DNA of 64,000 nt from Bacteroidaceae bacterium (GTDB lineage Bacteria; Bacteroidota; Bacteroidia; Bacteroidales; Bacteroidaceae), in NCBI GenBank assembly GCA_017445145.1, contig JAFSVI010000144.1:36992-100991 (forward strand). Direction: 5' to 3'. Each line of letters starts with the position of its first letter. The first letter of the stretch is position 1. A model generated the notes under the pieces. It made no database searches and had not been told where the DNA came from. It saw nothing but the letters and a program-made list of their open reading frames with translations. Below are positions 5,348 to 55,442 of this stretch, in pieces. Position numbers and translations under genes: made by a program.

Positions 5348-8317
5348 TTACGCCTTGAGTATCGAGTAAAGGAGGTCCATGTCGAGATGGCGGCGCACGT
5401 GGTCGGCCAGGCGGTCGTACTGCGTCTCCTTGAACGCTGCCGGGTCCATGGCAGCGGGTTGCGCCGGGCTTTTGTCGTGGAGCAGGTAGTCGATGACGGG
5501 GGCGTTGTCCAGGAAGCCGTGGATGTAGGTGCCTATGCAATGGTCGCCCTCGAGGATGGCCTGGTCGGTGGTGCTCACGCCCTGATGAATCTCGTAGCCC
5601 CGGCACGTGTGGCCCCGGAAGGTGAATGAGACCTGGCGCGTGGTCTTCTCGGGCGACATCGTGGTGTTGATGGGCAGCAGCGCAAGTCCCGGCAGCGAGG
5701 CTATGGAACCCTCTATGCCATCTGGGTCGTTGACGGTGAGGCCCATCATCTGGTAGCCTCCGCAGATGCCAACCACTGTTGTGCCGCGGCGGTGAGCACC
5801 CTGTATGGCCGCCGCGCAGCCGTTGCGGCGCAGCTCCAAGAGGTCGTCGAGGGTGGCCTTTGTGCCTGGCAGGATGATGATGTCGGCCTTGGCGAGGTCA
5901 CTGACGTTGTTTGTGTAGAAGAGGTTGACGCGCGGTTCGCGCTCGAGTGTGTCGAAGTCGGTGAAATTGCTGAGGTGGCGGAGCAGCACCACGGCGATGT
6001 TGACCTTGCCCTCGGCGAGCTGGCGCCGTTTGTTGGCGAGGCTCACGCTGTCCTCTTCCTCGATGTAGATGTCATCATAATAAGGCACCACGCCAATGAC
6101 CGGCACGCCGCAGATGTCGTGGAGCAAGCGGCGGCCCTCGTCGAAGAGACGCATGTCACCACGGAACTTGTTGACGATGATGCCCTTGATGCGCGCGCGG
6201 TCGGCGGGTGTCTGAAGCATGATGCTGCCATAGGCCGAGGCAAAGACGCCGCCACGGTCTATGTCAGCCACGAGGACGACGGCGGCATCGGCATGGCGCG
6301 CCATGGGCATGTTGACGAGGTCGGTGGCGCGCAGGTTGACCTCGCTGATGCTGCCGGCACCCTCCATGACGATGGGGTTGTAGCGCTGCGCGAGACGGTC
6401 GAAAGCGCCACACACCTCAGCCCTGAAGTCGGGGCCGGCGGGTTGGCTGCCGCCGTCGGTGCGCCGCCAGAAGGAATAGGCATCACGGTTGCCTATGGGC
6501 CGGCCGTGGAGCACAACCTGGCTCGTGTGGTTGGAGTTTGGTTTTAGCAACAGGGGGTTCATGTCGGTGTGGCAGGGTATGCCTGCCGCCTCGGCCTGCA
6601 CGGCCTGTGCACGACCTATCTCGAGTCCCTCGGGCGTGGCGTAGGAGTTGAGGGCCATGTTCTGGGCCTTGAATGGCGCGGGGTGGTAGCCATCCTGGCG
6701 GAAGATGCGGCACAGAGCCGTGGCGACGACGCTCTTGCCCACGTCGCTCCCCGTGCCGGCGAGCATGAGGGGCCGCAGTGGGGCGTGGATGGTCGTTGAG
6801 GCTTGTGCGGGCGTAGCGGCCAGTGGCGCCGATGGCGGCCGTGAGGCGGCGCGGCTGTCGGCAGTGAAGAAGGGTGTGTAGAGGTGTGTGTAGCTGGCCA
6901 CGACGTTCTTGTAGCGCAGCACGGGCGTGGCCACGGGTGCGCCCGTGGCGTCATAAACCTGGCAGACGGACGTCGGCTGTGGAGCGGCGTCGCTGGTGCC
7001 GGCGCCGGTGTCGGCAGTTAGGAACTGCGTGTAGTGGAACTCATGGCCACGGTGCTCGACACCGTCGATGACGAAGCGCCGGTAGCCGAGCGAGAGGCGG
7101 CGCTGGGCTGTGCGTGCAGTTATGGTGTGTGGCAGCACGCCACACATGGGGTATGTGGCGTCGTCGGTGACTATGGCCTCGCAGAGATACATCATGCCTC
7201 CGCACTCGGCCGCCACACGTCCGCCGCGTTGGGCAAAGTTGCGTATGGCCGTGCGGCAAGCTTCGTTGGCTGCCAGCGTCTGGAGATGCTTCTCGGGATA
7301 GCCCCCGGGCAGGTACAGCAGGTCGATGCCGTCGAGGCGGGGCACGTCGGTCTCGGGGTCGAAGAAGGTGACATGGTGCCAGCGGTCGAGGTTCTCCTGG
7401 TAGATGAACGAGAAGGACTCGGCATTGCGCGCCACGGCCACGGCCCACTCCCCAGCCGCTGTGCCTGGCGCTTCTCCGCCAGCTGCCGTGCCTGGTGCTT
7501 CTCCGCCAGGTCCCCCAGCCGCCGTGCCTGGCGCTTCTCCGCCAGCCGCCGTGCCTGGCGCTTTTCCGCCAGATTCCCCAGCCGCTGTGCCTGGCGCTTC
7601 TCCGCCAGCTGCCGTGCCTGGTGCTTCTCCGCCAGCTGCCGTGCCTGGCGCTTTTCCGCCAGGCATGTCGGCGAGCAAGGCATCGACATCGACATGCTCG
7701 GCCACGAGGGCCGCCAGCTGGCTGATGTCGCTGCGCTCCGAGAAGTCCAGGCCCAGATAGCGTGAGCCATGCTCGAGGGCGGCGGTGCGGGGTATGAAGC
7801 CGTAGCAGCGCAGCTGAAGGTCGCGGCACACCTGCTGCAGCATGGCGCGGTGGCGCTGCGATCCCACCTTGTTGAAGATGACACCGGCGATGCGCACGTC
7901 GTGGCGGAAGGCGGCGAAGCCCGCGAGCAGCGGTGCCAACGAGTAGGCGGCACTGCGGGCATCGACCACCAGCACCACGGGGATGCCCAGCACGGCGGCA
8001 ATCTCGGCCGACGAGCCGCGGTCGCGGTCGTAGCCGTCGAACAGCCCCATCATACCCTCGACGACACACACGTCGGCGTCACGGCCATAGCGGCCAAAGA
8101 GGGTGGCGACGTGGTCGGGCGTGGCCATGAAGGTGTCGAGGTTGATGCTGGGGCGCCCGCATGCGCGGTGGTGAAACTTGGTGTCGATATAGTCGGGGCC
8201 GCACTTGAAGGGCTGCACGCGCAGACCGCGCTCGCGCAGCGCAGCGAGCAGCCCGAGGGCGACGGTGGTCTTGCCGCATCCCGACGTGGGGGCGGCTATC
8301 AGCATAGCATGAGGCAT
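5348..8317 (-). CDS. cbiA/cobQ: Fused cobyrinate a,c-diamide synthase (CbiA/CobB) and cobyric acid synthase (CbiP/CobQ), with no stop codon between the two halves
   Basis: ORF track 5348..8497, trimmed to MPHAMLIAAPTSGCGKTTVALGLL (ATG at 8317). The N-terminal half is CbiA (GPDYID, YLPGGYPE, ECGGMMYL). A linker ..SRAASRPPSAPLAATPAQASTT.. follows. The second half is CobQ (LMLAGTGSDVGKSVVATALCRI, NMALNS, NPLLLKP, ICGGYQMMG). Confidence 0.85.
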   Translation of the reverse strand: MPHAMLIAAPTSGCGKTTVALGLLAALRERGLRVQPFKCGPDYIDTKFHHRACGRPSINLDTFMATPDHVATLFGRYGRDADVCVVEGMMGLFDGYDRDRGSSAEIAAVLGIPVVLVVDARSAAYSLAPLLAGFAAFRHDVRIAGVIFNKVGSQRHRAMLQQVCRDLQLRCYGFIPRTAALEHGSRYLGLDFSERSDISQLAALVAEHVDVDALLADMPGGKAPGTAAGGEAPGTAAGGEAPGTAAGESGGKAPGTAAGGEAPGTAAGGPGGEAPGTAAGGEAPGTAAGEWAVAVARNAESFSFIYQENLDRWHHVTFFDPETDVPRLDGIDLLYLPGGYPEKHLQTLAANEACRTAIRNFAQRGGRVAAECGGMMYLCEAIVTDDATYPMCGVLPHTITARTAQRRLSLGYRRFVIDGVEHRGHEFHYTQFLTADTGAGTSDAAPQPTSVCQVYDATGAPVATPVLRYKNVVASYTHLYTPFFTADSRAASRPPSAPLAATPAQASTTIHAPLRPLMLAGTGSDVGKSVVATALCRIFRQDGYHPAPFKAQNMALNSYATPEGLEIGRAQAVQAEAAGIPCHTDMNPLLLKPNSNHTSQVVLHGRPIGNRDAYSFWRRTDGGSQPAGPDFRAEVCGAFDRLAQRYNPIVMEGAGSISEVNLRATDLVNMPMARHADAAVVLVADIDRGGVFASAYGSIMLQTPADRARIKGIIVNKFRGDMRLFDEGRRLLHDICGVPVIGVVPYYDDIYIEEEDSVSLANKRRQLAEGKVNIAVVLLRHLSNFTDFDTLEREPRVNLFYTNNVSDLAKADIIILPGTKATLDDLLELRRNGCAAAIQGAHRRGTTVVGICGGYQMMGLTVNDPDGIEGSIASLPGLALLPINTTMSPEKTTRQVSFTFRGHTCRGYEIHQGVSTTDQAILEGDHCIGTYIHGFLDNAPVIDYLLHDKSPAQPAAMDPAAFKETQYDRLADHVRRHLDMDLLYSILKA
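7455..7661. repeat. Tandem array: seven 27-nt units plus two 9-nt spacers, in-frame inside cbiA
   Basis: The units gccgctgtgcctggcgcttctccgcca and variants start at 7455, 7482, 7518, 7545, 7581, 7608 and 7635. The spacers are ggtccccca (7509-7517) and gattcccca (7572-7580). Each unit contains a CTGGCG-N6-CGCCAG hairpin. The array translates on the minus strand as (G)GEAPGTAAG repeats. Confidence 0.95.
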
Positions 8318-9096
8318 AGCGAGAGGTAGAGAAGCAGTTCGGTGATGATGAACGTGGCACCGCAGCAGTCGCCGGTGTAGCCCTGCAGACGGCGGTGCAT
8401 CCACGCGAAGAGCGCGGCGCAGCCGCCCACGGGCAGCACCAAGGCGGCGAGCCACTGCCCCATCGTGGGCGACGTGGCCGGCGTGAGCACCAGGCATAGC
8501 GCCACGGGTGCGACGGCGAGCAGCAGTGTGAGCAGGCGTTCGGCCACGGGTGTGGCTTCATAGACGAGGCGGTTCTTGGCCTCGGCCTCGCTGCGGGCGT
8601 ATGGCAGGAAGAGGATGATGGTGGAGCTGAGGCCCTTGGCCATGGTGTCGGCTGCCACGATGGCTAAGGGCGAGAGGCCCACGTCGATGAGTTCGGTGAG
8701 GACGTTCCACACGAGGAGCACGTAGAGCACCAGCCCCAGCACGCCGTAGGTGCCTATGTGGGAGTCCTTCATGATGGCGAGTGTGCGCTCGCGCGAGGTG
8801 CCGCCGCCAAAGCCGTCGCAGAAGTCGGCAAAGCCGTCCTCGTGCAGGGCACCCGTGAGCAGGCACCGCGCCGCCAGGGCCACGGCCACAGCCACCTCCG
8901 GCGCCAGGCAGAGGCTGTCGGCCACGGCGACGACCGCCGCCATCGTGCCGCCCGTGAGCCACCCGGCGAGGGGCCACAGCGGCACGACGTGCTGGAAATA
9001 GCGGCGCTCGATGGTGGCGATGCGCCACAGCGGCAGCCGCGTGAAGAACATCAGCGTCGCCAGCGCGCGCTTAGAAATACTTTGTAATCTCGGCAT
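8299..9096 (-). CDS. cobS: Adenosylcobinamide-GDP ribazoletransferase (cobalamin synthase)
   Basis: ORF track 8299..9273, trimmed to MPRLQSISKRALATLMFFTRLPLW.. (ATG at 9096). Also ..GALHEDGFADFCDGFGGG... It overlaps the cobT 3' end and the cbiA start. Confidence 0.85.
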   Translation of the reverse strand: MPRLQSISKRALATLMFFTRLPLWRIATIERRYFQHVVPLWPLAGWLTGGTMAAVVAVADSLCLAPEVAVAVALAARCLLTGALHEDGFADFCDGFGGGTSRERTLAIMKDSHIGTYGVLGLVLYVLLVWNVLTELIDVGLSPLAIVAADTMAKGLSSTIILFLPYARSEAEAKNRLVYEATPVAERLLTLLLAVAPVALCLVLTPATSPTMGQWLAALVLPVGGCAALFAWMHRRLQGYTGDCCGATFIITELLLYLSLCLMLC

Positions 9097-10150: not shown

Positions 10151-10240
10151 AGGGGCAATAGGGGAATAGGGGCGGGGGAAGCGGGGAAGGTGAGGGTAAG
10201 GGAAGCGGGGTAAGGGAAGCGGGGTAAGGGGAAGCGGGTC
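10151..10240. repeat. G-run-rich tract with three copies of GGTAAGGGAAGCGG (C-rich on the transcribed cob strand)
   Basis: aggggcaataggggaataggggcgggggaagcggggaaggtgagggtaagggaagcggggtaagggaagcggggtaaggggaagcggg. It sits in the 159-nt cobU-cobT spacer. The adjacent perfect palindrome gtgcggctg-g-cagccgcac lies at 10117-10135. Confidence 0.9.
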
Positions 10241-31217: not shown

Positions 31218-34067
31218 ATGCCACGGCCATCATCCTCTACGCCGCCACCCCACCCCATGACACCACTCCACACCCTCCTCAAGCAGCGCGTCCTCGTCCT
31301 CGACGGCGCCATGGGCACCATGCTCATTGCGCGCGGCTACACCCGTGGCTGCAATGACCTGCTGTGTCTCGAAGCACCCGCTGTCGTCGAGGACATCCAC
31401 CGCCGCTACCTCGCTGCCGGTGCCGACATCATCGAAACCAACACGTTCAACGCCCAGCGCATCTCGCTGGCCGACTACGATGCCACCGAGCGCGTGCGCG
31501 ACATCAACCTTGCTGCGGCGCGCATGGCGCGGCGCCTGGCCGACGAGCAGACACGCCTCACACCCTCGCGTCCACGCTTTGTGGCGGGTTCTGTGGGTCC
31601 CACCAGCAAGACACTGTCCATGAGCCCCGACGTGGAGGACCCTGCCCTGCGCACGATCACCTTCGATGCCCTGTGCGATGCCTACGTGGAGCAGATGACA
31701 GCCCTCATCGAAGGGGGCGTGGACGTGCTCCTCATCGAGACCATCTTCGACACGCTCAATGCCAAGGCCGCCCTGTGTGCTGCCACACACGCCATGCACG
31801 CCGTCGGCCGCACGGTGCCCATCATGCTGTCGTTCACCGTCACCGACCGCGCCGGGCGCACGCTCTCGGGCCAGACCATCGACGCCTTCCTCACCTCCGT
31901 GGCCCACGCCGACCTTCTCAGCGTGGGCCTGAACTGCTCGTTTGGCGCCGCCGACATGCTCGCGCCGCTGCGGCAGATGTCGGCCCAGGCACCATATTTC
32001 ATCAGCGCATACCCCAACGCCGGCCTGCCCAACGCCCTCGGCCAGTACGACGAGTCCCCCACCACCATGCTCGCCCACATGCGGCGTTTCACCGACGAGC
32101 GTTTGGTGAACATCATCGGCGGATGCTGCGGCACCACCGACGACCACATACGCCTCCTCGCCACCCTGGCCGACCAGGCGCGCCCCCACGAGCCTGTGGC
32201 CGTGGCGCCCACGCTGCGCCTGGCCGGGCTCGAGCGCTTGGAGCTGACGCCGGAGCTGGCCTTTGTCAACGTTGGCGAGCGCTGCAATGTTGCCGGCTCG
32301 CGCAAGTTCCTGCGCCTCATCCGCGAGCACGACTACGACGCCGCCCTGGCCATAGCCCGCCAGCAGGTGGAGGACGGCGCCCTCGTCATCGACATCAACA
32401 TGGACGACGGGCTGCTCGACGCCGCCAGCGAGATGACCCATTTCCTCGACCTCATCGCCGCCGAACCCGAGATAGCACGCGTGCCGGTGATGATCGACTC
32501 GTCGGAGTGGGGCGTCATCAGCCAGGCACTGCGCCACGTGCAGGGCAAGGCCATCGTCAACAGCATATCGCTCAAGGAAGGCGAAGCCACCTTCATCGCC
32601 CATGCCCGCGAGTTGCGCGCCATGGGAGCCGCCGCCGTGGTGATGGCCTTCGACGAGCAGGGTCAGGCCACGACCTACGAGCGCCGCACGGCGGTGTGCC
32701 GCCGTGCCTACGACCTCCTGACACGCGTCGTGGGCATGCCCGCCGCCGACATCATCTTCGACCCCAACGTGCTCACCGTGGCCACGGGCATGCCCCAGCA
32801 CGATGCCTACGCGCTGGACTTCATCCGCGCCACACGCTGGATCCGCACCCACCTGCCTGGCGCTCACGTCAGCGGCGGCATCTCCAACCTGAGCTTTGCC
32901 TTCCGCGGCAACAACGACTTGCGCGAGGCCATGCACGCCGTGTTCCTCTACCACGCCCGACGCGCAGGGCTTGACATGGCCATCCTCAACCCCGCCACGC
33001 GCGTGGCCTATTCCGACATCCCCGCCCCGCTGCTTGAGGCGCTGGAGGACGTGGTGCTCTGTCGCCGCCCCGACGCCACAGAGCGCCTCATCGCCATGCA
33101 GGCAGCACCCGCCGCCCAGGCCACCACGACGCCACCCACTGTGCCCGGCGCTTTTCCGCCGGGTCTCGGCGCTTTTCCGCCGGGTCTCGGCGCTTTTCCG
33201 CCGGGCCACGACACCGCCGACGCCGCATCCACGCCAGAGGCATCGGTGGCCACGCGCCTCATCACCGCCCTGCGCCGCGGCACCACCGACACCCTCGAGG
33301 CCGACCTCGAGGCCGCGCTGGCCGCCTACCCCAGCCCCGTGGCCATCATCGAGGGTCCGCTCATGGAGGGCATGAACCTCGTTGGGCAGCTCTTCGGCGA
33401 GGGCAAGATGTTCCTGCCGCAGGTGGTGAAGACGGCACGCACCATGAAGCGCGCCGTGGAAATCCTGCAACCCCACATCAACGCAGCGGCCACCGGGCCG
33501 GCAGCGCCGGACACGCCGTCGCCGGCCTCGCGCCCCCGCGTGCTGCTTGCCACGGTCAAGGGCGATGTCCACGACATCGGCAAGAACATCGTCGCCGTGG
33601 TCATGGCATGCAACGGCTACGACGTCATCGACCTCGGCGTGATGGTGCCGGCAGAGACCATCGTGGAGAAAACGCTTGAGCTGCAACCCGACGTCATCGG
33701 TCTCTCAGGCCTCATCACACCATCGTTGGGCGAGATGGTGGCCACGGTGCGCCTCCTTGACCAGGCTGGCATACACGTGCCAGTGCTCATCGGTGGTGCC
33801 ACGACAAGCCCGCTCCACACGGCGCTGAAGATAGCCCCGGCCTACGCCGGACCCGTCATCCATGTGCGCGACGCCAGCCAGAACGTGCCGCTCGCGGCTC
33901 CCTTCCTCAATGCCGCCACGGCCGACGAGGCCGCTGCCGAGCTGCTGCGCCGCCAAGAGACATTGCGCAGCGCCGCCACCACGCCGCCCGGCGCCGAACT
34001 CCTCACGATAGAGGAGGCGAGACGCCGCAAACCCAACTTCTTCCATCACGACAGCAACCAGCCATGA
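31218..34067 (+). CDS. metH: Cobalamin-dependent methionine synthase (Hcy, pterin, cap and B12-binding modules; no AdoMet reactivation module)
   Basis: ..VLVLDGAMGTML..ADIIETNTFNA.., ..NVGERCNVAGSRKF.., ..INMDDGLLD.., ..GISNLSF.., ..VKGDVHDIGKNIV.. (DxHxxG). The start may instead be M14 (31257). The protein ends about 60 aa after the B12 domain. Confidence 0.9.
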   Translation: MPRPSSSTPPPHPMTPLHTLLKQRVLVLDGAMGTMLIARGYTRGCNDLLCLEAPAVVEDIHRRYLAAGADIIETNTFNAQRISLADYDATERVRDINLAAARMARRLADEQTRLTPSRPRFVAGSVGPTSKTLSMSPDVEDPALRTITFDALCDAYVEQMTALIEGGVDVLLIETIFDTLNAKAALCAATHAMHAVGRTVPIMLSFTVTDRAGRTLSGQTIDAFLTSVAHADLLSVGLNCSFGAADMLAPLRQMSAQAPYFISAYPNAGLPNALGQYDESPTTMLAHMRRFTDERLVNIIGGCCGTTDDHIRLLATLADQARPHEPVAVAPTLRLAGLERLELTPELAFVNVGERCNVAGSRKFLRLIREHDYDAALAIARQQVEDGALVIDINMDDGLLDAASEMTHFLDLIAAEPEIARVPVMIDSSEWGVISQALRHVQGKAIVNSISLKEGEATFIAHARELRAMGAAAVVMAFDEQGQATTYERRTAVCRRAYDLLTRVVGMPAADIIFDPNVLTVATGMPQHDAYALDFIRATRWIRTHLPGAHVSGGISNLSFAFRGNNDLREAMHAVFLYHARRAGLDMAILNPATRVAYSDIPAPLLEALEDVVLCRRPDATERLIAMQAAPAAQATTTPPTVPGAFPPGLGAFPPGLGAFPPGHDTADAASTPEASVATRLITALRRGTTDTLEADLEAALAAYPSPVAIIEGPLMEGMNLVGQLFGEGKMFLPQVVKTARTMKRAVEILQPHINAAATGPAAPDTPSPASRPRVLLATVKGDVHDIGKNIVAVVMACNGYDVIDLGVMVPAETIVEKTLELQPDVIGLSGLITPSLGEMVATVRLLDQAGIHVPVLIGGATTSPLHTALKIAPAYAGPVIHVRDASQNVPLAAPFLNAATADEAAAELLRRQETLRSAATTPPGAELLTIEEARRRKPNFFHHDSNQP
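33147..33206. repeat. Three tandem copies of a 21-nt unit ggcgcttttccgccgggtctc, in-frame inside metH
   Basis: Copies lie at 33147, 33168 and 33189 and translate to GAFPPGL GAFPPGL GAFPPG. Each has the hairpin CCGGCG-CTTTTC-CGCCGG. The core matches the cbiA array at 20 of 22 positions. Confidence 0.95.
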
Positions 34068-34594
34068 CACCCGACACCACCCCAGCCACCATGCCCGGCG
34101 CTTTTCTGCCAGATTCCGACGCTGCTGCCGCGCTGCAGCAGACGGCCACCAACATCCTCGACCGCGTGGGCGGCACGCTCGACGCCAACACCATGCCCCT
34201 GCTCACGGCCGACCAGATCACGCTCCTGGCCTACAGCACCCTGCGCGCGGAGGTGCTCGAGGGTGGCTTCATACAGCTCATACACAACGGCTACGGCCCC
34301 TTCATCTTCCTCAACCCCTTTGCCAAGGCCATGCGCCTCTGGGGCAAGGAGCTTGCGCCCGACGCCGCCGGCGAGGTGCTACACTCGTTCTCCCGCCTCG
34401 TCTATGACGGCCGCCAACTCTTCGAGCGCCATGGCGCGGCGCTCACCGCCGAGATGGACGACGACGCCTTCATGGCCCTCTATGAGCAATACCCCGACTT
34501 CGACGAACTCGACGATACCTTCATCGACACGGAGGACGACATCACGGCTGCCGTCATGAGCTACGTCAGCAGCCACCAAGATGCCTTTTCCTGA
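34064..34594 (+). CDS. Hypothetical protein, DUF4375/DMP19-like
   Basis: 176 aa. ..LRAEVLEGGFIQLIHNGYGPFIFLNPFAKAMRLWG... There is an ATGA start/stop overlap with metH. The N-terminal residues MPGAFLPDS are encoded by a copy of the dispersed repeat. The family call is tentative. Confidence 0.5.
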   Translation: MTPDTTPATMPGAFLPDSDAAAALQQTATNILDRVGGTLDANTMPLLTADQITLLAYSTLRAEVLEGGFIQLIHNGYGPFIFLNPFAKAMRLWGKELAPDAAGEVLHSFSRLVYDGRQLFERHGAALTAEMDDDAFMALYEQYPDFDELDDTFIDTEDDITAAVMSYVSSHQDAFS

Positions 34595-39293: not shown

Positions 39294-40016
39294 TCAGGAT
39301 TGGTTTGTAGGTTGAAGGTTGTGGGGTAGTTGCGGGATGAAGTGGTGCTCCAAGGTTCGTATGGCAGCAAGGTCGCTGTCAGTGAGTTGCAGCTCGTCGG
39401 TACATAGACGCTTGCGGGCCATGGCGATGAACTGGCGGGGCGTGGTGGCGGTGTGGTGGCTGAGCAGGCCTATGCGCTGGCTCACACTGGCCACGCCGTG
39501 GCGCCCGAGCTTGGAGGGTGGCGGCGTGATGGCGCGCTGCATGTGGTGCATGTCGGCATCGAAGAGCATGGTGGAGTGCACCACACTGTGGCCCGAGGGC
39601 GTGAGGTGGTAGGCTGTGCCGGCCACCTTGTGGGCGCCCACGAGTATGTCGTTGCGGCCGGTGTGTGTGGCCTCCACGACCATCTCGCGGAGCAGCAGCA
39701 GCAGCATCTCCACGAAGCGGTGGTAGGTGAACGCCACCTGGTCGGAGGGGGTGATGAAGGTGAGCATGACGTTGCCGCGGTCGGCATAGACACAACCGCC
39801 GCCGCTCTTGCGGCGAAACACGCCGATGCCATGGGCCGCACAGTAGGCGAGATCCACTTCTGCGGCGATGTCCTGGTTGCGCCCGCAGATGACGCTGGGT
39901 CCCACCTGCCACATCATCCAGCAGTCGGCAGCGGGGCGCAGCGTTGCCGAAACATACTCCTCAGCCGCAAGATAGAAGCTGAGGCGCTGGCCGTCGGGGA
40001 GTGGGATGAAGCGCAT
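39294..40016 (-). CDS. lplA: Lipoate--protein ligase family protein (BPL/LplA/LipB catalytic domain)
   Basis: ORF track 39294..40088, trimmed to MRFIPLPDGQRLSFYLAAEEYV..VICGRNQD..RRKSGGGCVYAD..KVAGTAY... It lies 4 nt upstream of gcvT. Confidence 0.7.
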   Translation of the reverse strand: MRFIPLPDGQRLSFYLAAEEYVSATLRPAADCWMMWQVGPSVICGRNQDIAAEVDLAYCAAHGIGVFRRKSGGGCVYADRGNVMLTFITPSDQVAFTYHRFVEMLLLLLREMVVEATHTGRNDILVGAHKVAGTAYHLTPSGHSVVHSTMLFDADMHHMQRAITPPPSKLGRHGVASVSQRIGLLSHHTATTPRQFIAMARKRLCTDELQLTDSDLAAIRTLEHHFIPQLPHNLQPTNQS

Positions 40017-40046
40017 GTGTGGGCGTTGATGGGGGGTAATGCGGGG

Positions 40047-40054
40047 CAAAGATA
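40047..40054 (-). promoter_or_regulatory. -7 promoter box TATCTTTG (minus strand)
   Basis: The plus strand reads caaagata. The box is 31 nt upstream of the lplA ATG. Confidence 0.55.
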
Positions 40055-40141
40055 CGCATTGCCCGCATACTTTCCAAACTTGTGCCATGTTTTAACCTTT
40101 TTTGGGTCACGGCTCATGCCGTTTTGCCCCGCGCGGGGCGA

Positions 40142-40204
40142 GGGGCATCCCCGCCAGGACACGGCGCATCCCCGCCGGGGAGCGCCGCACACCCGGCGGG
40201 ACTG
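40142..40204. repeat. Three tandem 21-nt units related to the metH/cbiA repeat (same stem, different loop), intergenic
   Basis: ggggcatccccgccaggacac / ggcgcatccccgccggggagc / gccgcacacccggcgggactg. They are preceded by the 14-nt perfect palindrome gccccgcgcggggc (40126-40139). Confidence 0.85.
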
Positions 40205-40210
40205 GGCGTC

Positions 40211-40296
40211 GCGTGCCGCGGCAAGCGTGGCAACATGCCGCGGCGAATAACGCAACTTGCCGCGGCGAGTAATGCAACTTGCCGCGGACATCTGTG
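40211..40296. repeat. Iteron-like 22-nt direct repeats, each carrying the palindrome TGCCGCGG(CA)
   Basis: caacatgccgcggcgaataacg (40231), caacttgccgcggcgagtaatg (40253) and caacttgccgcggacatctgtg (40275), plus a partial gcgtgccgcggcaagcgtgg (40211). The palindromic cores are spaced exactly 22 nt apart. Confidence 0.85.
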
Positions 40297-40330
40297 GCGC
40301 GGGGCAAGCCCTGGCAGGCGCATGCGCACG

Positions 40331-40369
40331 AAAAAGCCCGCCCCTGGCCTTGGCGGCCGGAGGCGGGCT
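40331..40369 (-). terminator. Intrinsic terminator of the DUF2582 gene
   Basis: On the minus strand, AGCCCGCC-N19-GGCGGGCT is followed by TTTTT. Confidence 0.65.
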
Positions 40370-40447
40370 GTGGGAGAAAAGAAACCCCATGCGCTGCGTG
40401 CTGTGCGGCTGGCATGGGATGAGAATAGCGTTGATGGTGCCTGTGGC

Positions 40448-46867: not shown

Positions 46868-48433
46868 ATGCCGCAACGCGATGCCGACACCAACCACGGC
46901 GCCACAGCCGCCACGCCGACGACGAAGCACGACAGCCCCCGCACGCTGCCGCTCATCTTCATCGCTGGCTTCACTGTCAACTACCTGCTCATGGGCCTCA
47001 GCCGCTATGGATACATGCTGCCCATACCGACGTCGGCACACGTCGAACTCGCATACCTCGTGCTCATAGCCTACGGAGCAGCCCACGCACAGCGATGGGG
47101 CACCGGCGCCAGCCGTGCCATGGGGCCGATGATTGGCATCTACCTCGCGTGGACGTTCTTCTCAACCATTCAGGCCGTGAACCTGAGCAGCGAGATCGAC
47201 TTCTCAACCATCATCACGCGATGGCTGGCCGAATACCGCACCATGACGCTGCAGGTGTTCTGGGCATTCATGGTCAACGGCCTCTACTTCAAGCGCATGG
47301 AGCAGGTGCGCGCCCTCTACCGCCTATGGGCCCTGCTCACCATAGTGGCCGTGGCGTGGGGCTTGCGCCAGCAGTTTGGGGGCTTCGACCGCGCCGAGTG
47401 GGCTTGGCTCCTCGCTGTGGGCATGAAGACTCACTTTGTCAATGGCATCATACGCTACTTCTCCTTCTTCTCCGAAGCGGCCAACTACGGATGCTGCATG
47501 GGGGCATCGACAGTGGTGTTCGGGGTGCTCTTCCTAACCACGACGTCGTCCAAACGCGACAGGATGCTCTTCGGCCTGGCTGCCGCAGCCGCGCTCTACG
47601 GCATGATGGCCTCCGGCGCGCGGGCTGCCATCTTCGTGCTCGCCGCCGGACTCATGGCCTACTGCGTCATCTCCAAGCGCATAAGCACCCTCATAGCCAC
47701 CATGGTCGTCGGAGGTCTCTTCGTGGGCTTCCTCATGCTCACCGACATCGGACAGGGCAACGCCATGATACGCCGCATGCGCTCGGCCTTCAACAAGGAG
47801 GACAACTCGCTCGCTGTGCGCGAAATCAACAAGGCAACCATGAAGCGGTACATCGACGCCATGCCTTTTGGCCTCGGCGCCGGCATCCGCAACAGCGACG
47901 TGCCGCCAAGCAACAAGAACCACTACCTGGCCACCGTGCCGCCCGACTCCACATGGGTTTATGTCGATATCCACTACGGCCACCTCGGACAGCTGCTCTT
48001 CCTGCTCTCCTTCGGCGGCATGATAGCCATCGGGGGCATGAAGGTGCTCTTCAACATCCGCGACCCGGAGCTGAGCGGGCAGATGGCGGCCATCGTCGCC
48101 GGCTCCTTCGCCATGTTCGTGGCGGGATATGCCAACCAAATCATGTTGCAGTTCCCCAACACATGGCTCTTCTTCGGCAACCTATCCCTCGTGGCACTGG
48201 CCGAGGAGATGGAGCAGCAGCGCAATGCCGACCTCGCGGCAGCTCAGGGCAACGCCCCGCATACGGCCGAGACGGCACACCACAGCATCTTCCCGCTCGA
48301 GAGCCAGCCACCACTCGCCTACCCGCTCGACAACCCACCCGCCAGCCAGGCTCCACTCGACACCCAAACGCCTGTCGCCTTCCCGCTCGACAACCTACCC
48401 GCCGACATCTTCCCACTCGACCACAAAGCATAG
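46868..48433 (+). CDS. O-antigen ligase/polymerase-like (Wzy_C domain) polytopic membrane protein with a C-terminal decapeptide-repeat tail
   Basis: 521 aa with many hydrophobic segments. ..LYGMMASGARAAIFVLAAGL.. is a Wzy_C-like loop/helix. The tail is FPLESQPPLA YPLDNPPASQ APLDTQTPVA FPLDNLPADI FPLDHKA. Confidence 0.65.
   Translation: MPQRDADTNHGATAATPTTKHDSPRTLPLIFIAGFTVNYLLMGLSRYGYMLPIPTSAHVELAYLVLIAYGAAHAQRWGTGASRAMGPMIGIYLAWTFFSTIQAVNLSSEIDFSTIITRWLAEYRTMTLQVFWAFMVNGLYFKRMEQVRALYRLWALLTIVAVAWGLRQQFGGFDRAEWAWLLAVGMKTHFVNGIIRYFSFFSEAANYGCCMGASTVVFGVLFLTTTSSKRDRMLFGLAAAAALYGMMASGARAAIFVLAAGLMAYCVISKRISTLIATMVVGGLFVGFLMLTDIGQGNAMIRRMRSAFNKEDNSLAVREINKATMKRYIDAMPFGLGAGIRNSDVPPSNKNHYLATVPPDSTWVYVDIHYGHLGQLLFLLSFGGMIAIGGMKVLFNIRDPELSGQMAAIVAGSFAMFVAGYANQIMLQFPNTWLFFGNLSLVALAEEMEQQRNADLAAAQGNAPHTAETAHHSIFPLESQPPLAYPLDNPPASQAPLDTQTPVAFPLDNLPADIFPLDHKA
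48291..48420 (+). repeat. Five copies of a 30-nt degenerate tandem repeat (core YCCRCTCGA) at the 3' end of the Wzy-like gene
   Basis: The core recurs at 48291, 48321, 48351, 48381 and 48411, an exact 30-nt period. Confidence 0.85.
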
Positions 48434-49432: not shown

Positions 49433-50845
49433 GTGCTCTGGCAAATAGTCTCCATACTCGACATCATCCTCTTCATCATGGTGCTCATCACTGTGGTGTA
49501 CCTGAGCGTGTTTGCCATCGCCAGCCTCTTCTACAGCAAGTTCGAGGCACCAGCCACACGCAAGACAGCACGCATTCTCATACTCATCCCATGCTACCGC
49601 GCCGACGACATCTACCAGCTCACGCTCGACGCCATCGCCGCCCAGGACTATGACCCTCGTGCCATCGACATCATGGTGGTCTCCGCCGGCAACAAGCCCA
49701 TCACAAACATGAAGCTCGCGCAATATAACCTCACCATGTGCATCATGCCCGAGGACGAATATACCGACGTGCGCGCGTGGCAGTTCGGCATGGACCACTG
49801 TGCACCACTAAGGCTCTACGACATAGTGCTCATCATCGAAGCCGGAGAGACGATGCAACCCACATATCTCACCGACATCAACGAGGCTTTCCAGCTCGGC
49901 TCGAAAGCCATACAGACACACCGCACGTACCCGCACCGCACGACACCGAAGGAAATGCTCACTGCCACCTTCGAGGAAATCAACTCCAGCATCTTCCGCA
50001 TGGGCCACGTGGCGCTGGGGCTGTCGTCGGGTCTCCTGGGTTCGGGCATGGCCTTTGAGCACAAATGGTTTCGCGACAACATCGGCCTCCTGACCGCCGA
50101 CAGCGACCTCAAAGCCTTTGAGGCAATGGTGCTTGCCGCCGGACGCTACGTTGACTACCTCGACGACACGCACTTCGTCGGCAAGCCGCAGAAAGCCGTC
50201 GGCGGACTGCCCGTCATCGACCGCTCGAAATGGATGTACGCACAGTGGCACGCCCTGCGCACTCACGTCAAGGACCTGCCGCGAGCCATCCTGCAAGGCA
50301 ACCCCGACCTCTTCGACAAGGTGTTCCAATGGATTCTCATGCCGCGAGTGGTTATGATGAGCATTATCGCCCTCATGTGCGTCATCACGCCCCTCTTCTG
50401 GTGGAGCATGACGCTGAAATGGCTCGTCATGGGCTTCTGGGTGATGCTGGTGTTCGCCATCGCCACGCCCGACTACCTCATCAACCGCGAGTGGGAGAAG
50501 GCTTTCATCTACGCCCCGCTGCTCATGGTCAAAGCCCTCTTCGACGCACTGCCATCGGGATGGGCGCTGGCATTCACCCGCAGCCACAAGGACGAGTGGA
50601 TCGACGACTTGCGCCAAGGCAGCGAGATGCTGATGGAACAGGGCGAGAAGCTCAAGGAGCAAGGAGCAAAGCTCAAGGAGCAGGGCGCAAAGCTCAAGGA
50701 GCAGGGCGCAAAGCTCAAAGCCCAGGGCGGGAAGCTCGGGGAGCGCAGCGGCTTCTTCAGCCGTCTGAGCCGCATAGCCGGTGGACGCCGACGCGACAAC
50801 ACCACCGACAGCCGCGAGGAGGAGGCACACCCATGGCCCACATGA
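49433..50845 (+). CDS. Multi-TM synthase-like GT2-fold protein with degenerate catalytic motifs and a C-terminal heptad-repeat tail (probable pseudo-glycosyltransferase)
   Basis: 470 aa with a GTG start. It is paralogous to the next gene (shared ..EEINSSIFRMGH..GSGM..). However, it has IIEAGE where the paralog has ILDADN, ADSDLKA where it has GEDKEI, and DRSKW where it has QRRRW. Confidence 0.7.
   Translation: MLWQIVSILDIILFIMVLITVVYLSVFAIASLFYSKFEAPATRKTARILILIPCYRADDIYQLTLDAIAAQDYDPRAIDIMVVSAGNKPITNMKLAQYNLTMCIMPEDEYTDVRAWQFGMDHCAPLRLYDIVLIIEAGETMQPTYLTDINEAFQLGSKAIQTHRTYPHRTTPKEMLTATFEEINSSIFRMGHVALGLSSGLLGSGMAFEHKWFRDNIGLLTADSDLKAFEAMVLAAGRYVDYLDDTHFVGKPQKAVGGLPVIDRSKWMYAQWHALRTHVKDLPRAILQGNPDLFDKVFQWILMPRVVMMSIIALMCVITPLFWWSMTLKWLVMGFWVMLVFAIATPDYLINREWEKAFIYAPLLMVKALFDALPSGWALAFTRSHKDEWIDDLRQGSEMLMEQGEKLKEQGAKLKEQGAKLKEQGAKLKAQGGKLGERSGFFSRLSRIAGGRRRDNTTDSREEEAHPWPT
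50636..50740 (+). repeat. Five copies of a 21-nt tandem repeat encoding EQGxKLK heptads
   Basis: gaacagggcgagaagctcaag / gagcaaggagcaaagctcaag / gagcagggcgcaaagctcaag / gagcagggcgcaaagctcaaa / gcccagggcgggaagctcggg. Confidence 0.9.
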
Positions 50846-55361: not shown

Positions 55362-55442
55362 CTTTCCGCCAACGCCCCGCCACCAACGCCCCGCCGCCAT
55401 CAGCCCACCGCCAACATTCCACCGCAAACACCCGCAAGACAA

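What the first reader, a model, noticed from the sequence alone, without database searches (positions are those of the whole stretch)
33147..33206. The same repeat family inserted in-frame in metH, in the linker before the B12 cap domain
Three 21-nt units ggcgcttttccgccgggtctc encode GAFPPGL GAFPPGL GAFPPG. They lie between the pterin-binding module (..RLIAMQAAPAAQ) and the cap/B12 module (..LITALRRGT..). The string gtgcccggcgcttttccgccgg matches cbiA-array copy 4 (7551-7572, gtgcctggcgcttttccgccag) at 20 of 22 positions. However, the host gene is on the opposite strand, so the element is read as GAFPPG here and as GGKAPGTAA in cbiA. Two essential B12-related enzymes therefore carry the same foreign DNA motif in permissive linkers.
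Basis: seen in the sequence. Interest (0 to 1): 0.7.

Follow-up and report, generated by a model that had tools for sequence, protein, structure and literature searches.

The report
Palindromic repeat element inside metH linker
The triple GAFPPG repeat in methionine synthase is a small hairpin-forming, REP-like selfish DNA element that landed in a floppy interdomain linker and changes copy number between strains; this is a known kind of event seen here in a new bacterial group, and not a vitamin-B12-specific feature.

Summary
Window 33146-33205 holds 2.9 perfect 21-nt units, in frame, in MetH. An AlphaFold model places them in a disordered segment between the pterin barrel and the B12 cap.

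The repeat is specific to one species cluster. Orthologues are at most 74% identical, and their linkers are unrelated and range from 16 to 60 aa. Conspecific strains (99.6-99.8% identical DNA) carry 2 units or 3 diverged units.

The core is a hairpin, CCCGGCG-CTTTTC-CGCCGGG. The two mismatches to the cbiA copies form a compensatory base pair. A profile built only from outside sequences finds exactly three loci in the window, all on the + strand:
- metH (the best match)
- the cbiA array
- a third copy at the start of the gene just downstream of metH

The same element occurs in rumen/gut Bacteroidales contigs. There it lies in frame in GH94, GH78 and AsnRS genes, in intergenic DNA, and above all inside or beside a RAYT-like HUH transposase gene.

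Best reading: an intragenic REP-like element, locally amplified by slippage and tolerated because it has no stop codon in any frame and encodes a Pro/Gly/Ala-rich peptide. The B12 link is coincidental. This is a new member of a known kind, of moderate-to-low interest.

The parts
33136..33166 (+). Full-length REP-like unit: 5' flank CCACTGTG, hairpin CCCGGCG-CTTTTC-CGCCGGG, 3' flank TCT. It is the most canonical copy in the window.
   Evidence: Top hit (32 bits, E=5.5e-9) of a profile built only from non-window loci. The 27-mer GTGCCCGGCGCTTTTCCGCCGGGTCTC is identical to units of the L117 array.
33146..33205 (+). Tandem array of 2.9 units of 21 nt (GGCGCTTTTCCGCCGGGTCTC), read as GAFPPGL GAFPPGL GAFPPG.
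   Evidence: TRF score 120 with 100% matches. One unit (33146-33166) is missing in strain L001/P0123. Strains L002/L003 carry 5 SNPs inside it and 1 just 3' of it. As single-stranded DNA it folds at -24.5 kcal/mol, z=-3.76.
33123..33236 (+). Disordered part of the MetH linker between the folate (pterin) barrel and the B12 cap: residues 623-660 of the 936-aa protein. It contains the repeat at residues 631-650.
   Evidence: AlphaFold2 model m460dbed7611e has mean pLDDT 84.8 and pTM 0.81. Residues 623-660 have pLDDT below 50 and no secondary structure, and lie between helices 607-623 and 664-674. The linker is hypervariable in 119 orthologues, 16-60 aa.
31218..34067 (+). metH ORF (949 aa from the first ATG; gene callers use the start at 31257, giving 936 aa). 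It is cobalamin-dependent methionine synthase without the C-terminal AdoMet reactivation domain.
   Evidence: ORF list. Pfam S-methyl_trans, Pterin_bind, B12-binding_2 and B12-binding. Orthologues named methionine synthase.
7448..7665 (+). Array of 7 REP-like units (27 nt, two of them with a 9-nt extension) with the hairpin CCTGGCG-CTTYTC-CGCCAGG. It is read on the - strand as GGKAPGTAA/GGEAPGTAA in the CbiA interdomain linker.
   Evidence: Strains carry 7 units, 5 units plus a truncated one, or 3 units. Orthologues lack it. The units are hit by the non-window profile.
5348..8497 (-). cbiA(cobB)-cobQ fusion ORF that hosts the second array.
   Evidence: Pfam CbiA/AAA_26 and GATase_3, each matched in two stretches. 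Orthologues named adenosylcobyric acid synthase.
34084..34117 (+). Third, single and degraded REP-like copy (AGCCACCATGCCCGGCGCTTTTCTGCCAGATTCC), 17 nt after the metH stop codon. It is read as PATMPGAFLPDS in the non-conserved N-terminus of the downstream DMP19-like ORF 34064..34594.
   Evidence: 17.9 bits, E=1.5e-4. Pfam DMP19 matches residues 47-171 only. Homologues align only from about residue 20-30 onward. One SNP in this copy between strains.

Best explanation
The metH repeat is a copy of a short REP-like palindromic element. The family consensus is about GCCRCYGTG | CCCGGCG | CTTYTC | CGCCGGG | TYCTC, that is, a 7-8 bp GC stem with a 6-nt loop. The family is dispersed in rumen/gut Bacteroidales and is associated with a RAYT-like HUH/Y1 transposase gene.

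Shown:
- One copy sits in the structurally disordered, length-tolerant linker between the folate barrel and the B12 cap of MetH.
- A 21-nt part of it has been tandemly amplified. The array gains and loses whole units and accumulates substitutions between near-identical strains.
- Related copies sit in the CbiA linker and at the start of the gene just 3' of metH.

Inferred:
- Copies are seeded by a single-strand HUH (RAYT-type) transposition process, or by template switching. Hairpin-promoted slipped-strand mispairing then expands and contracts the arrays.
- Only copies that are multiples of 3 nt and fall in one of the two Pro/Gly/Ala-rich reading frames, within loops, linkers or tails, survive selection. 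The element is stop-free in all six frames.
- In MetH the insert is most likely a neutral passenger that merely lengthens a flexible tether.
For: Hairpin and covariation. In an alignment of 28 copies from the window and 14 other loci, 93.8% of stem cells are paired. Three stem pairs show double compensatory changes (CG<->UA, GC<->AU, CG<->GC; 14 cells). None of 500 shuffles reaches the observed score, and slid controls give 33-53% paired.

The family is real outside the window. A 23-nt degenerate pattern found 16 metagenome loci. About 13 of these are Bacteroidales-type with shared flanks beyond the pattern.

RAYT link. tblastn shows that 10 loci fetched by the DNA pattern alone (about 8 distinct genes) carry one RAYT-like gene, with copies inside it or just upstream of it. 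After removing its insert, the protein P0247 matches NCBIfam REP_Tyr_transpos across both the HuH and Y motifs (E=1.5e-12). In-frame REP insertions inside tnpA_REP genes of Bacteroidetes and Cyanobacteria, and intragenic REPs in 'flexible linkers or loops', are described in PMC6006769 and PMC3733652.

Insertion nature. In GH94 the element replaces 2 residues of an otherwise colinear, highly conserved stretch when aligned to the solved structure 3QDE. GH78 and AsnRS show similar inserts.

MetH specifics. The repeat lies in a segment with pLDDT below 50. It is absent from all orthologues, whose linkers span 16-60 aa against 54 here.

Instability. Strains carry 2 or 3 units. Six of the 77 SNPs between the window and L002 fall within 64 nt (expected 0.22; Poisson P about 1e-7, my calculation). 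The cbiA array has 3, 5+ or 7 units.

Frames. Both arrays are open in all six frames. All 8 independent coding occurrences use the one Pro/Gly/Ala-rich frame available for their orientation, which has a chance probability of (1/3)^8, about 1.5e-4 (inference).
Against: - No RAYT-like gene lies in the 64-kb window. The rest of this genome could not be searched, so a cognate transposase in this organism is unproven.
- Only 3 loci occur in about 73 kb. All three are inside called ORFs and all are in direct orientation. Classical REPs are abundant, mostly extragenic and often in inverted pairs.
- The conserved 5' tag is GTG(C), not the canonical GTAG/GTGG.
- The RAYT-like protein scores below the NCBIfam and Pfam cut-offs (47.6 bits against 80; 21.8 against 23).
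- metH and cbiA share only about 20-30 nt. Gene conversion or convergence on a slippage-prone hairpin cannot be fully excluded.
- No empty-site allele of metH was found, so the insertion event itself is not observed.
- The outside loci were found with a pattern derived from the window motif, so only the flanks and genomic contexts count as independent evidence.
Confidence: 0.6

Rival explanations
1. The family is real, but it spreads and is homogenised without a dedicated transposase. Copies would move by ectopic gene conversion or replication template switching between hairpin-forming sequences. Local slippage would generate the arrays. The association with the RAYT-like gene would exist only because that gene has a permissive loop.
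For: No RAYT-like gene in the window. Low copy density: 3 loci in about 73 kb, and usually no copies flanking the RAYT-like genes in L106 and L112. The units within each array are near-identical, which is typical of slippage or conversion. In one strain the interior of a hairpin was deleted between short GCC repeats.
Against: About half of all independent occurrences found by DNA pattern alone lie in or beside one particular HUH-family gene, which is hard to explain by permissiveness alone. Inverted pairs resembling REPINs lie inside that gene. Identical elements occur in unrelated genes of different genomes. The published precedent links such insertions to TnpA_REP.
Confidence: 0.2
2. The metH repeat arose purely locally, by slippage of native linker codons. 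Its resemblance to the cbiA array and to other sequences would be convergence of GC-rich, Pro/Gly/Ala-coding low-complexity DNA.
For: Many MetH orthologues have their own unrelated low-complexity or tandem-repeat linkers, for example QQGDK x5 in P0046 and Ser/Pro-rich runs in P0019. The metH-cbiA match is short: 20 nt, E=1e-3.
Against: The shared part is a palindrome with compensatory changes, not a codon-driven motif, and it is read in different frames and on different strands. The shared flanks extend beyond the hairpin (CYGTG on the 5' side, GTCTC/GTTCTC on the 3' side) and match elements in other genomes exactly over 27 nt. A profile built from non-window loci ranks the metH copy first, at 32 bits against at most 7.1 bits in shuffles. 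Shuffles expect 0.06 core matches and 9 are seen.
Confidence: 0.1
3. The insert is functional. It might tune the tether length for MetH's large domain motions. Alternatively, as an mRNA or DNA hairpin, it might regulate expression of B12-dependent and B12-biosynthetic genes in a coordinated way.
For: Two of the three loci in the window are B12-related. The Fol-Cap linker is mechanically relevant in MetH (established knowledge of MetH domain rearrangements). The array folds stably.
Against: Copy number and sequence vary among strains that are 99.6-99.8% identical, and substitutions are enriched roughly 27-fold, which indicates relaxed constraint. The same element sits in GH94, GH78, AsnRS, a transposase-like gene and intergenic DNA. 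The linker length stays within the natural range of orthologues. No Rfam family matched.
Confidence: 0.07
4. The repeat is an assembly artefact caused by collapse or expansion of a short repeat.
For: Short tandem repeats are error-prone in short-read metagenome assemblies. Related arrays break contigs elsewhere (L041 and L046 end in arrays).
Against: At least four independent assemblies from different samples contain the array with identical flanks. Their unit differences are internally consistent, and two independent assemblies (L002, L003) agree base for base. The 60-nt array is shorter than a read.
Confidence: 0.03

Closest known systems
Intragenic REP sequences, and REP insertions inside tnpA_REP (RAYT) genes of subclass 2.4 (Quentin et al. 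2018, PMC6006769; Di Nocera et al. 2013, PMC3733652)
   Same: A short GC-rich palindromic unit. In-frame copies in unrelated conserved genes, located in linkers, loops or N-termini. [quoted passage not shown] Single units and clustered units that encode tens of amino acids. Strain-to-strain variation.
   Different: The 5' tag is GTG(C) rather than GTAG/GTGG or CGTC. The RAYT-like protein has DHIH / YH / RYMxENP motifs and a long C-terminal extension, and scores below family cut-offs. Copy density appears low, and the window copies are all intragenic and in direct orientation. MetH and CbiA hosts, and this sequence family, were not found in the literature I searched.
Rickettsia palindromic elements (RPE; cited in PMC3733652 as inserted in frame within ORFs)
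   Same: Selfish palindromic DNA that survives inside essential protein-coding genes. It stays in frame and is placed at surface or loop positions.
   Different: By my recollection of the RPE literature (not tested here), RPEs are much longer (about 100-150 bp), are restricted to Rickettsia, are unrelated in sequence and are not tandemly amplified like this. No transposase link is established for them.
Coding-region VNTRs (minisatellite-like in-frame tandem repeats)
   Same: The unit length is a multiple of three (21, 27 or 36 nt). Whole-unit gain and loss occurs between closely related strains, consistent with slipped-strand mispairing.
   Different: Ordinary VNTRs are locus-specific. Here the repeated unit is a dispersed, structured element shared between loci and genomes. 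It produces no frameshift-based phase variation.

Membership tests
REP / REPIN elements | Short (20-40 nt) GC-rich imperfect palindrome that forms a stem-loop, with base pairing maintained among copies | tested here: met
   An 8-pair stem is 93.8% paired over 28 copies. Three pairs show compensatory double changes, and 0 of 500 shuffles reach the observed score. The array folds at -24.5 kcal/mol, z=-3.76.
REP / REPIN elements | Conserved tetranucleotide tag (GTAG/GTGG, or CGTC) at the foot of the hairpin | tested here: inconclusive
   G-T-G immediately 5' of the stem is invariant or at least 90% conserved (columns 7-9 of A1). The tetranucleotide reads GTGC, which is not a published tag (PMC3733652, PMC6006769).
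REP / REPIN elements | Many dispersed copies per genome, predominantly extragenic | tested here: inconclusive
   Only about 73 kb of this genome could be read. It holds 3 loci, all within called ORFs. Related genomes show both intergenic and coding copies. The whole-genome count is not obtainable with these tools.
REP / REPIN elements | Inverted doublets (REPIN arrangement) | tested here: not met
   All window copies are on the + strand in direct orientation. Inverted pairs do occur inside the RAYT-like genes of L104, L106 and L112.
REP / REPIN elements | Physical association with a RAYT (TnpA_REP) gene - tested for the family as a whole | tested here: met
   Ten loci retrieved by DNA pattern alone carry one RAYT-like gene, with copies inside it or, in L110, upstream of it. 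The protein matches REP_Tyr_transpos at E=1.5e-12, below the cut-off.
REP / REPIN elements | A cognate RAYT gene present in this same genome | not testable with these tools
   tblastn of P0247 against the window finds only the repeat-encoded peptide.
TnpA_REP subclass 2.4 (Quentin et al. 2018) | [quoted passage not shown] | tested here: met
   P0247, L041/L046, L104, L106 and L112 carry inserts of type GGEAPGT.../VPEAFPSG between MPDHIHLL and GYHDRII...RYMxENP. With the insert removed, the match to the family model becomes contiguous.
TnpA_REP subclass 2.4 (Quentin et al. 2018) | Signature motifs NH[IFV]H, WQ and YIxNNP | tested here: not met
   P0247 has DHIH, YH(D) and RYMAENP, against Table 1 of PMC6006769. 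It is therefore RAYT-like, with its subclass unassigned.
Rickettsia palindromic elements (RPE) | In-frame insertion at loop or linker positions of conserved protein genes | tested here: met
   MetH disordered linker, GH94 loop aligned against 3QDE, CbiA linker.
Rickettsia palindromic elements (RPE) | Element about 100-150 bp long, with Rickettsia-specific sequence families | tested here: not met
   The unit here is about 27-35 nt and the host is Bacteroidales. The RPE size is my recollection, not a tool result.
Coding VNTR | Unit length a multiple of 3, with whole-unit copy-number polymorphism between strains | tested here: met
   metH has 2 or 3 units of 21 nt. cbiA has 3, 5+ or 7 units of 27/36 nt.
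Cobalamin-dependent methionine synthase (MetH) | Hcy-binding, pterin-binding, B12 cap and B12-binding modules in order | tested here: met
   All four Pfam domains score above their cut-offs. The model has pTM 0.81. The C-terminal AdoMet activation domain is absent, as it is in the Bacteroidales orthologues of about 900-1000 aa.

The most novel reading that the evidence does not exclude
A previously undescribed subclass of Bacteroidales RAYT-like HUH enzymes carries an inverted pair of its own hairpins inside its coding sequence. It actively seeds stop-free hairpin units into single-stranded DNA at coding linkers of housekeeping genes such as MetH, CbiA, AsnRS, GH94 and GH78. This would make REP insertion plus slippage a general generator of linker-length polymorphism in gut and rumen Bacteroidales, with measurable effects on multidomain enzymes such as MetH.
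Probability: 0.12. Interest if true: 0.6.

Novelty: new member of a known kind. Interest (0 to 1): 0.35.

Why it matters
The finding gives a concrete, strain-resolved example of selfish palindromic DNA living inside essential enzymes of gut or rumen Bacteroidales, a group in which REP/RAYT biology is little studied.

It explains a class of odd Pro/Gly/Ala-rich inserts that could otherwise be mistaken for functional motifs or for B12-specific features. It also accounts for some contig breaks in metagenome assemblies.

It supplies a defined hairpin consensus and a candidate RAYT-like partner that can be tested biochemically.

For MetH itself, it is a natural experiment. The Fol-Cap tether tolerates 14-21 extra residues.

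Tried and rejected
- **Genome-contig scan** with TGCCNGGYGCTTYTCCGCCNG. Most hits were chance matches in GC-rich genomes, many of which encode LAEKRLA-type peptides. It never reached the window's species, though it gave five or six useful Bacteroidales loci.
- **Tandem-unit pattern in JGI metagenomes**. Zero hits, so this species is apparently not in that collection.
- **Six-frame synthetic peptide query** against 5.8 billion proteins. It returned only the MetH and CbiA clusters and one RAYT-like protein. Single-unit inserts are too short or too low in complexity for HMMER, so the number of decorated proteins in this species remains unknown.
- **Rfam at gathering thresholds**. No match.
- **Viral contigs**. 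No match.
- **Intergenic hairpins in the window.** I looked for copies of this hairpin that might act as terminators. None were present.
- **GC skew**. It follows gene strand and gives no information on replication direction, so the all-plus-strand orientation cannot be interpreted.
- **PDB sequence search with the RAYT-like protein**. No meaningful hit.
- **Look-ups** of P0121 and of window ORF 2171-2860 returned nothing on record.
- **Extending about 9 kb** beyond the window's 3' end found no further copy.
- **Rejected explanations:** chance similarity, conservation at the protein level, a B12-specific function, and assembly artefact. These are treated under the rival explanations.
Full report
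**Observation.** Window 33146-33205 contains 2.9 perfect copies of a 21-nt unit (TRF score 120; sequence). The array lies in frame in the + strand ORF 31218..34067. That ORF carries the four MetH modules in order: S-methyl_trans, Pterin_bind, B12-binding_2 (cap) and B12-binding. The repeat encodes VPGAFPPGLGAFPPGLGAFPPGH, between the end of the pterin barrel and the cap. The quoted 20/22 match to 7551-7572 in the array of the - strand cbiA/cobQ fusion ORF (5348..8497) is correct, and that gene reads the motif as GGKAPGTAA/GGEAPGTAA.

**Is the similarity more than chance?** The 16-nt core with up to 2 mismatches occurs 9 times in the window, always on the + strand, against 0.06 expected from shuffles. 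This search exposed a third locus at 34084-34117, 17 nt after the metH stop codon. It lies in the N-terminus of the downstream DMP19-like ORF and is read as PATMPGAFLPDS. It matches the cbiA array over 36 nt at 89% identity (E=4e-6), while metH matches cbiA over 20 nt at 95% (E=1e-3). A profile built only from sequences outside the window scores the first metH unit highest (32 bits, E=5.5e-9), then the seven cbiA units and the third site. Nothing else in 64 kb exceeds 2.4 bits, and shuffled windows reach at most 7.1 bits. A caveat applies: the outside sequences were retrieved with a pattern derived from the window, so the core is not independent, although the flanks and genomic contexts are.

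**What the motif is.** The core is a palindrome: CCCGGCG-CTTTTC-CGCCGGG in metH and CCTGGCG-CTTYTC-CGCCAGG in cbiA. Across 28 copies from the window and 14 other loci, an 8-pair stem is 93.8% paired. Three pairs show double compensatory changes (CG<->UA, GC<->AU, CG<->GC; 14 cells). None of 500 shuffles reaches the observed values, and slid controls drop to 33-53% paired. A conserved GTG precedes the stem, and GTCTC/GTTCTC often follows it. As single-stranded DNA the metH array folds at -24.5 kcal/mol (z=-3.76), with out-of-register nested pairing, the kind of structure that favours slippage. Both arrays are free of stop codons in all six frames.

**MetH context.** Among 119 orthologues (the closest is 73-74% identical) the segment between ..DATERLI.. 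and ..RLI.ALRRG.. is unalignable and ranges from 16 to 60 aa, with a median of 28. The window has 54 aa. An AlphaFold2 model built on a 59-sequence alignment (mean pLDDT 84.8, pTM 0.81) shows residues 623-660 of the 936-aa protein with pLDDT below 50 and no secondary structure, between helices 607-623 and 664-674. The repeat occupies residues 631-650. Other orthologues have their own unrelated low-complexity or tandem inserts at this spot, so the linker is generally permissive.

**Population dynamics.** The cluster holds four protein variants. DNA from three other assemblies of the same species is 99.6-99.8% identical to the window over about 19-23 kb. L001 lacks exactly one unit (33146-33166). 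L002 and L003, two independent assemblies that agree with each other, keep three units but carry 6 substitutions within 33165-33228, out of 77 mismatches in 22.8 kb between L002 and the window. That is 0.22 expected, Poisson P about 1e-7 by my calculation. The cbiA array is equally unstable. It has 7 units in the window and 3 in L122. In L123/L124 it has 5 units plus a unit whose hairpin interior has been deleted. Orthologues at 71% identity or less have only a short unrelated linker.

**The family outside the window.** It nevertheless returned Bacteroidales loci:
- a 63-nt in-frame tandem array inside a gene with an HUH motif, split over two contigs of one reindeer MAG (L041/L046)
- a GH94 gene reading VPGAFPPG (L052)
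- intergenic, partly terminator-like copies (L011, L031)

A six-frame peptide search found only the MetH and CbiA clusters plus P0247, a protein carrying MPDHIHLL...[GGKAPGTAAREAPGT...VPEGSPSG]...GYHDRII...RYMAENP. Its DNA has a third compensatory hairpin variant, CCCGGGG-CTTTTC-CCCCGGG. With the insert removed, P0247 aligns contiguously to NCBIfam REP_Tyr_transpos positions 32-136 (E=1.5e-12, 47.6 bits, below the cut-off of 80) and to Pfam Y1_Tnp (21.8 bits, cut-off 23). I therefore call it RAYT-like and do not claim it is a curated family member.

A more specific metagenome scan gave 16 loci. tblastn shows that 10 loci fetched by DNA pattern alone carry this RAYT-like gene. [quoted passage not shown] Other hosts and contexts are:
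- GH94, where alignment to the solved structure 3QDE shows about 18 inserted residues replacing two residues in an otherwise colinear stretch
- a GH78 rhamnosidase
- AsnRS
- intergenic DNA, including a 56-nt-period array (not a multiple of three) whose units contain the exact metH 27-mer (L117)

All eight independent coding occurrences use the single Pro/Gly/Ala-rich frame available for their orientation. The chance probability of that is (1/3)^8, about 1.5e-4 (inference). This is what survivorship selection would produce.

[quoted passage not shown] The present family behaves in the same way. It differs in four respects: its tag is GTGC rather than GTAG/GTGG/CGTC; the protein signature motifs differ; copy density appears low; and the window copies are all intragenic and in direct orientation. 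I found no paper describing this family, or REP-like inserts in MetH or CbiA of Bacteroidales. That is a limited search.

**Mechanism.** Three things are shown. The element is a structured, dispersed repeat. The metH copy lies in a disordered, length-tolerant linker. The arrays expand, contract and mutate rapidly. Three things are inferred. Copies are seeded by RAYT-type single-strand transposition or, less likely, by template switching or gene conversion. Slippage then amplifies the 21-nt sub-unit. Selection keeps only in-frame copies in a benign reading frame. The B12 theme is most likely a coincidence of two long multidomain genes with permissive linkers lying in one window.

**Limits.** No RAYT-like gene lies in the window. 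About 9 kb beyond the 3' end adds no copy. The rest of the genome could not be searched. GC skew was uninformative. The window gave no hit at Rfam gathering thresholds, and a viral-contig scan for the element's 23-nt pattern found nothing.

**Verdict.** This is a new member of a known kind, an intragenic REP-like palindromic element. Interest is 0.35.

Noticed in passing
window 34084-34117: A third, degraded copy of the same hairpin element lies 17 nt after the metH stop codon. It sits in the non-conserved N-terminal roughly 22 aa of the DMP19-like ORF, which overlaps metH by ATGA. An in-element ATG at 34091 could be an alternative start codon.
   Followed up: partly
window 7448-7665; L122, L123, L124: The cbiA array varies between strains: 7 units, 3 units, or 5 units plus one unit whose hairpin interior (15 nt) has been deleted between short GCC repeats.
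   Followed up: yes
L103, L104, L106, L107, L110, L112, L114, L116, L041+L046: A family of RAYT-like genes (about 390-480 aa; DHIH ... GYHDRII ... RYMxENP, with a long C-terminal extension) carries an inverted pair or an array of the hairpin element in frame between its catalytic motifs. It scores below the curated cut-offs and may be an undescribed subclass.
   Followed up: partly
window 39997-40427: This intergenic region holds other GC-rich repeats: 21-nt and 22-nt tandem units and an inverted repeat CCCGCCGGG...CCCGGCGGG. Strain SNPs cluster at 40121-40263. It may be a different hairpin family.
   Followed up: no
window 48286-48421, 50635-50744, 10175-10239, 55366-55430: Further tandem repeats with periods of 30/60, 21 (the DNA unit translates to roughly KLKEQGA), 14 and 14 nt. 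They are unrelated to the hairpin element.
   Followed up: no
window 31218-34067: MetH here, like its Bacteroidales orthologues of about 900-1000 aa, lacks the C-terminal AdoMet-binding reactivation domain. A few orthologues are fused to 5-FTHF cyclo-ligase (PF01812) instead.
   Followed up: no
window 1-64000: No Rfam family reaches its gathering score anywhere in the window. In particular there is no cobalamin riboswitch, even though cobalamin genes (cobT/cobS/cbiA-cobQ/cobD-like) and metH are present.
   Followed up: no
MetH orthologues P0046, P0019, P0030, P0049/P0053/P0070: Other lineages have their own tandem or low-complexity inserts in the same linker, for example QQGDK x5 and Ser/Pro-rich runs. 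There is also a second insertion hot spot about 10 residues upstream (ASPNPLPKRGLADCAKE).
   Followed up: no
L117 285-764: An array of at least 9 units with a 56-nt period (not a multiple of three). Each unit contains the exact metH 27-mer, and the array is probably non-coding.
   Followed up: partly
L055 and L069 (Lachnospiraceae bacterium IMSAGC_003): Contig ends in a Firmicutes genome consist of tandem units with a similar hairpin (TGCCGGGTGCTTCTCCGCCCGG...). This may be an unrelated or a convergent repeat family.
   Followed up: no
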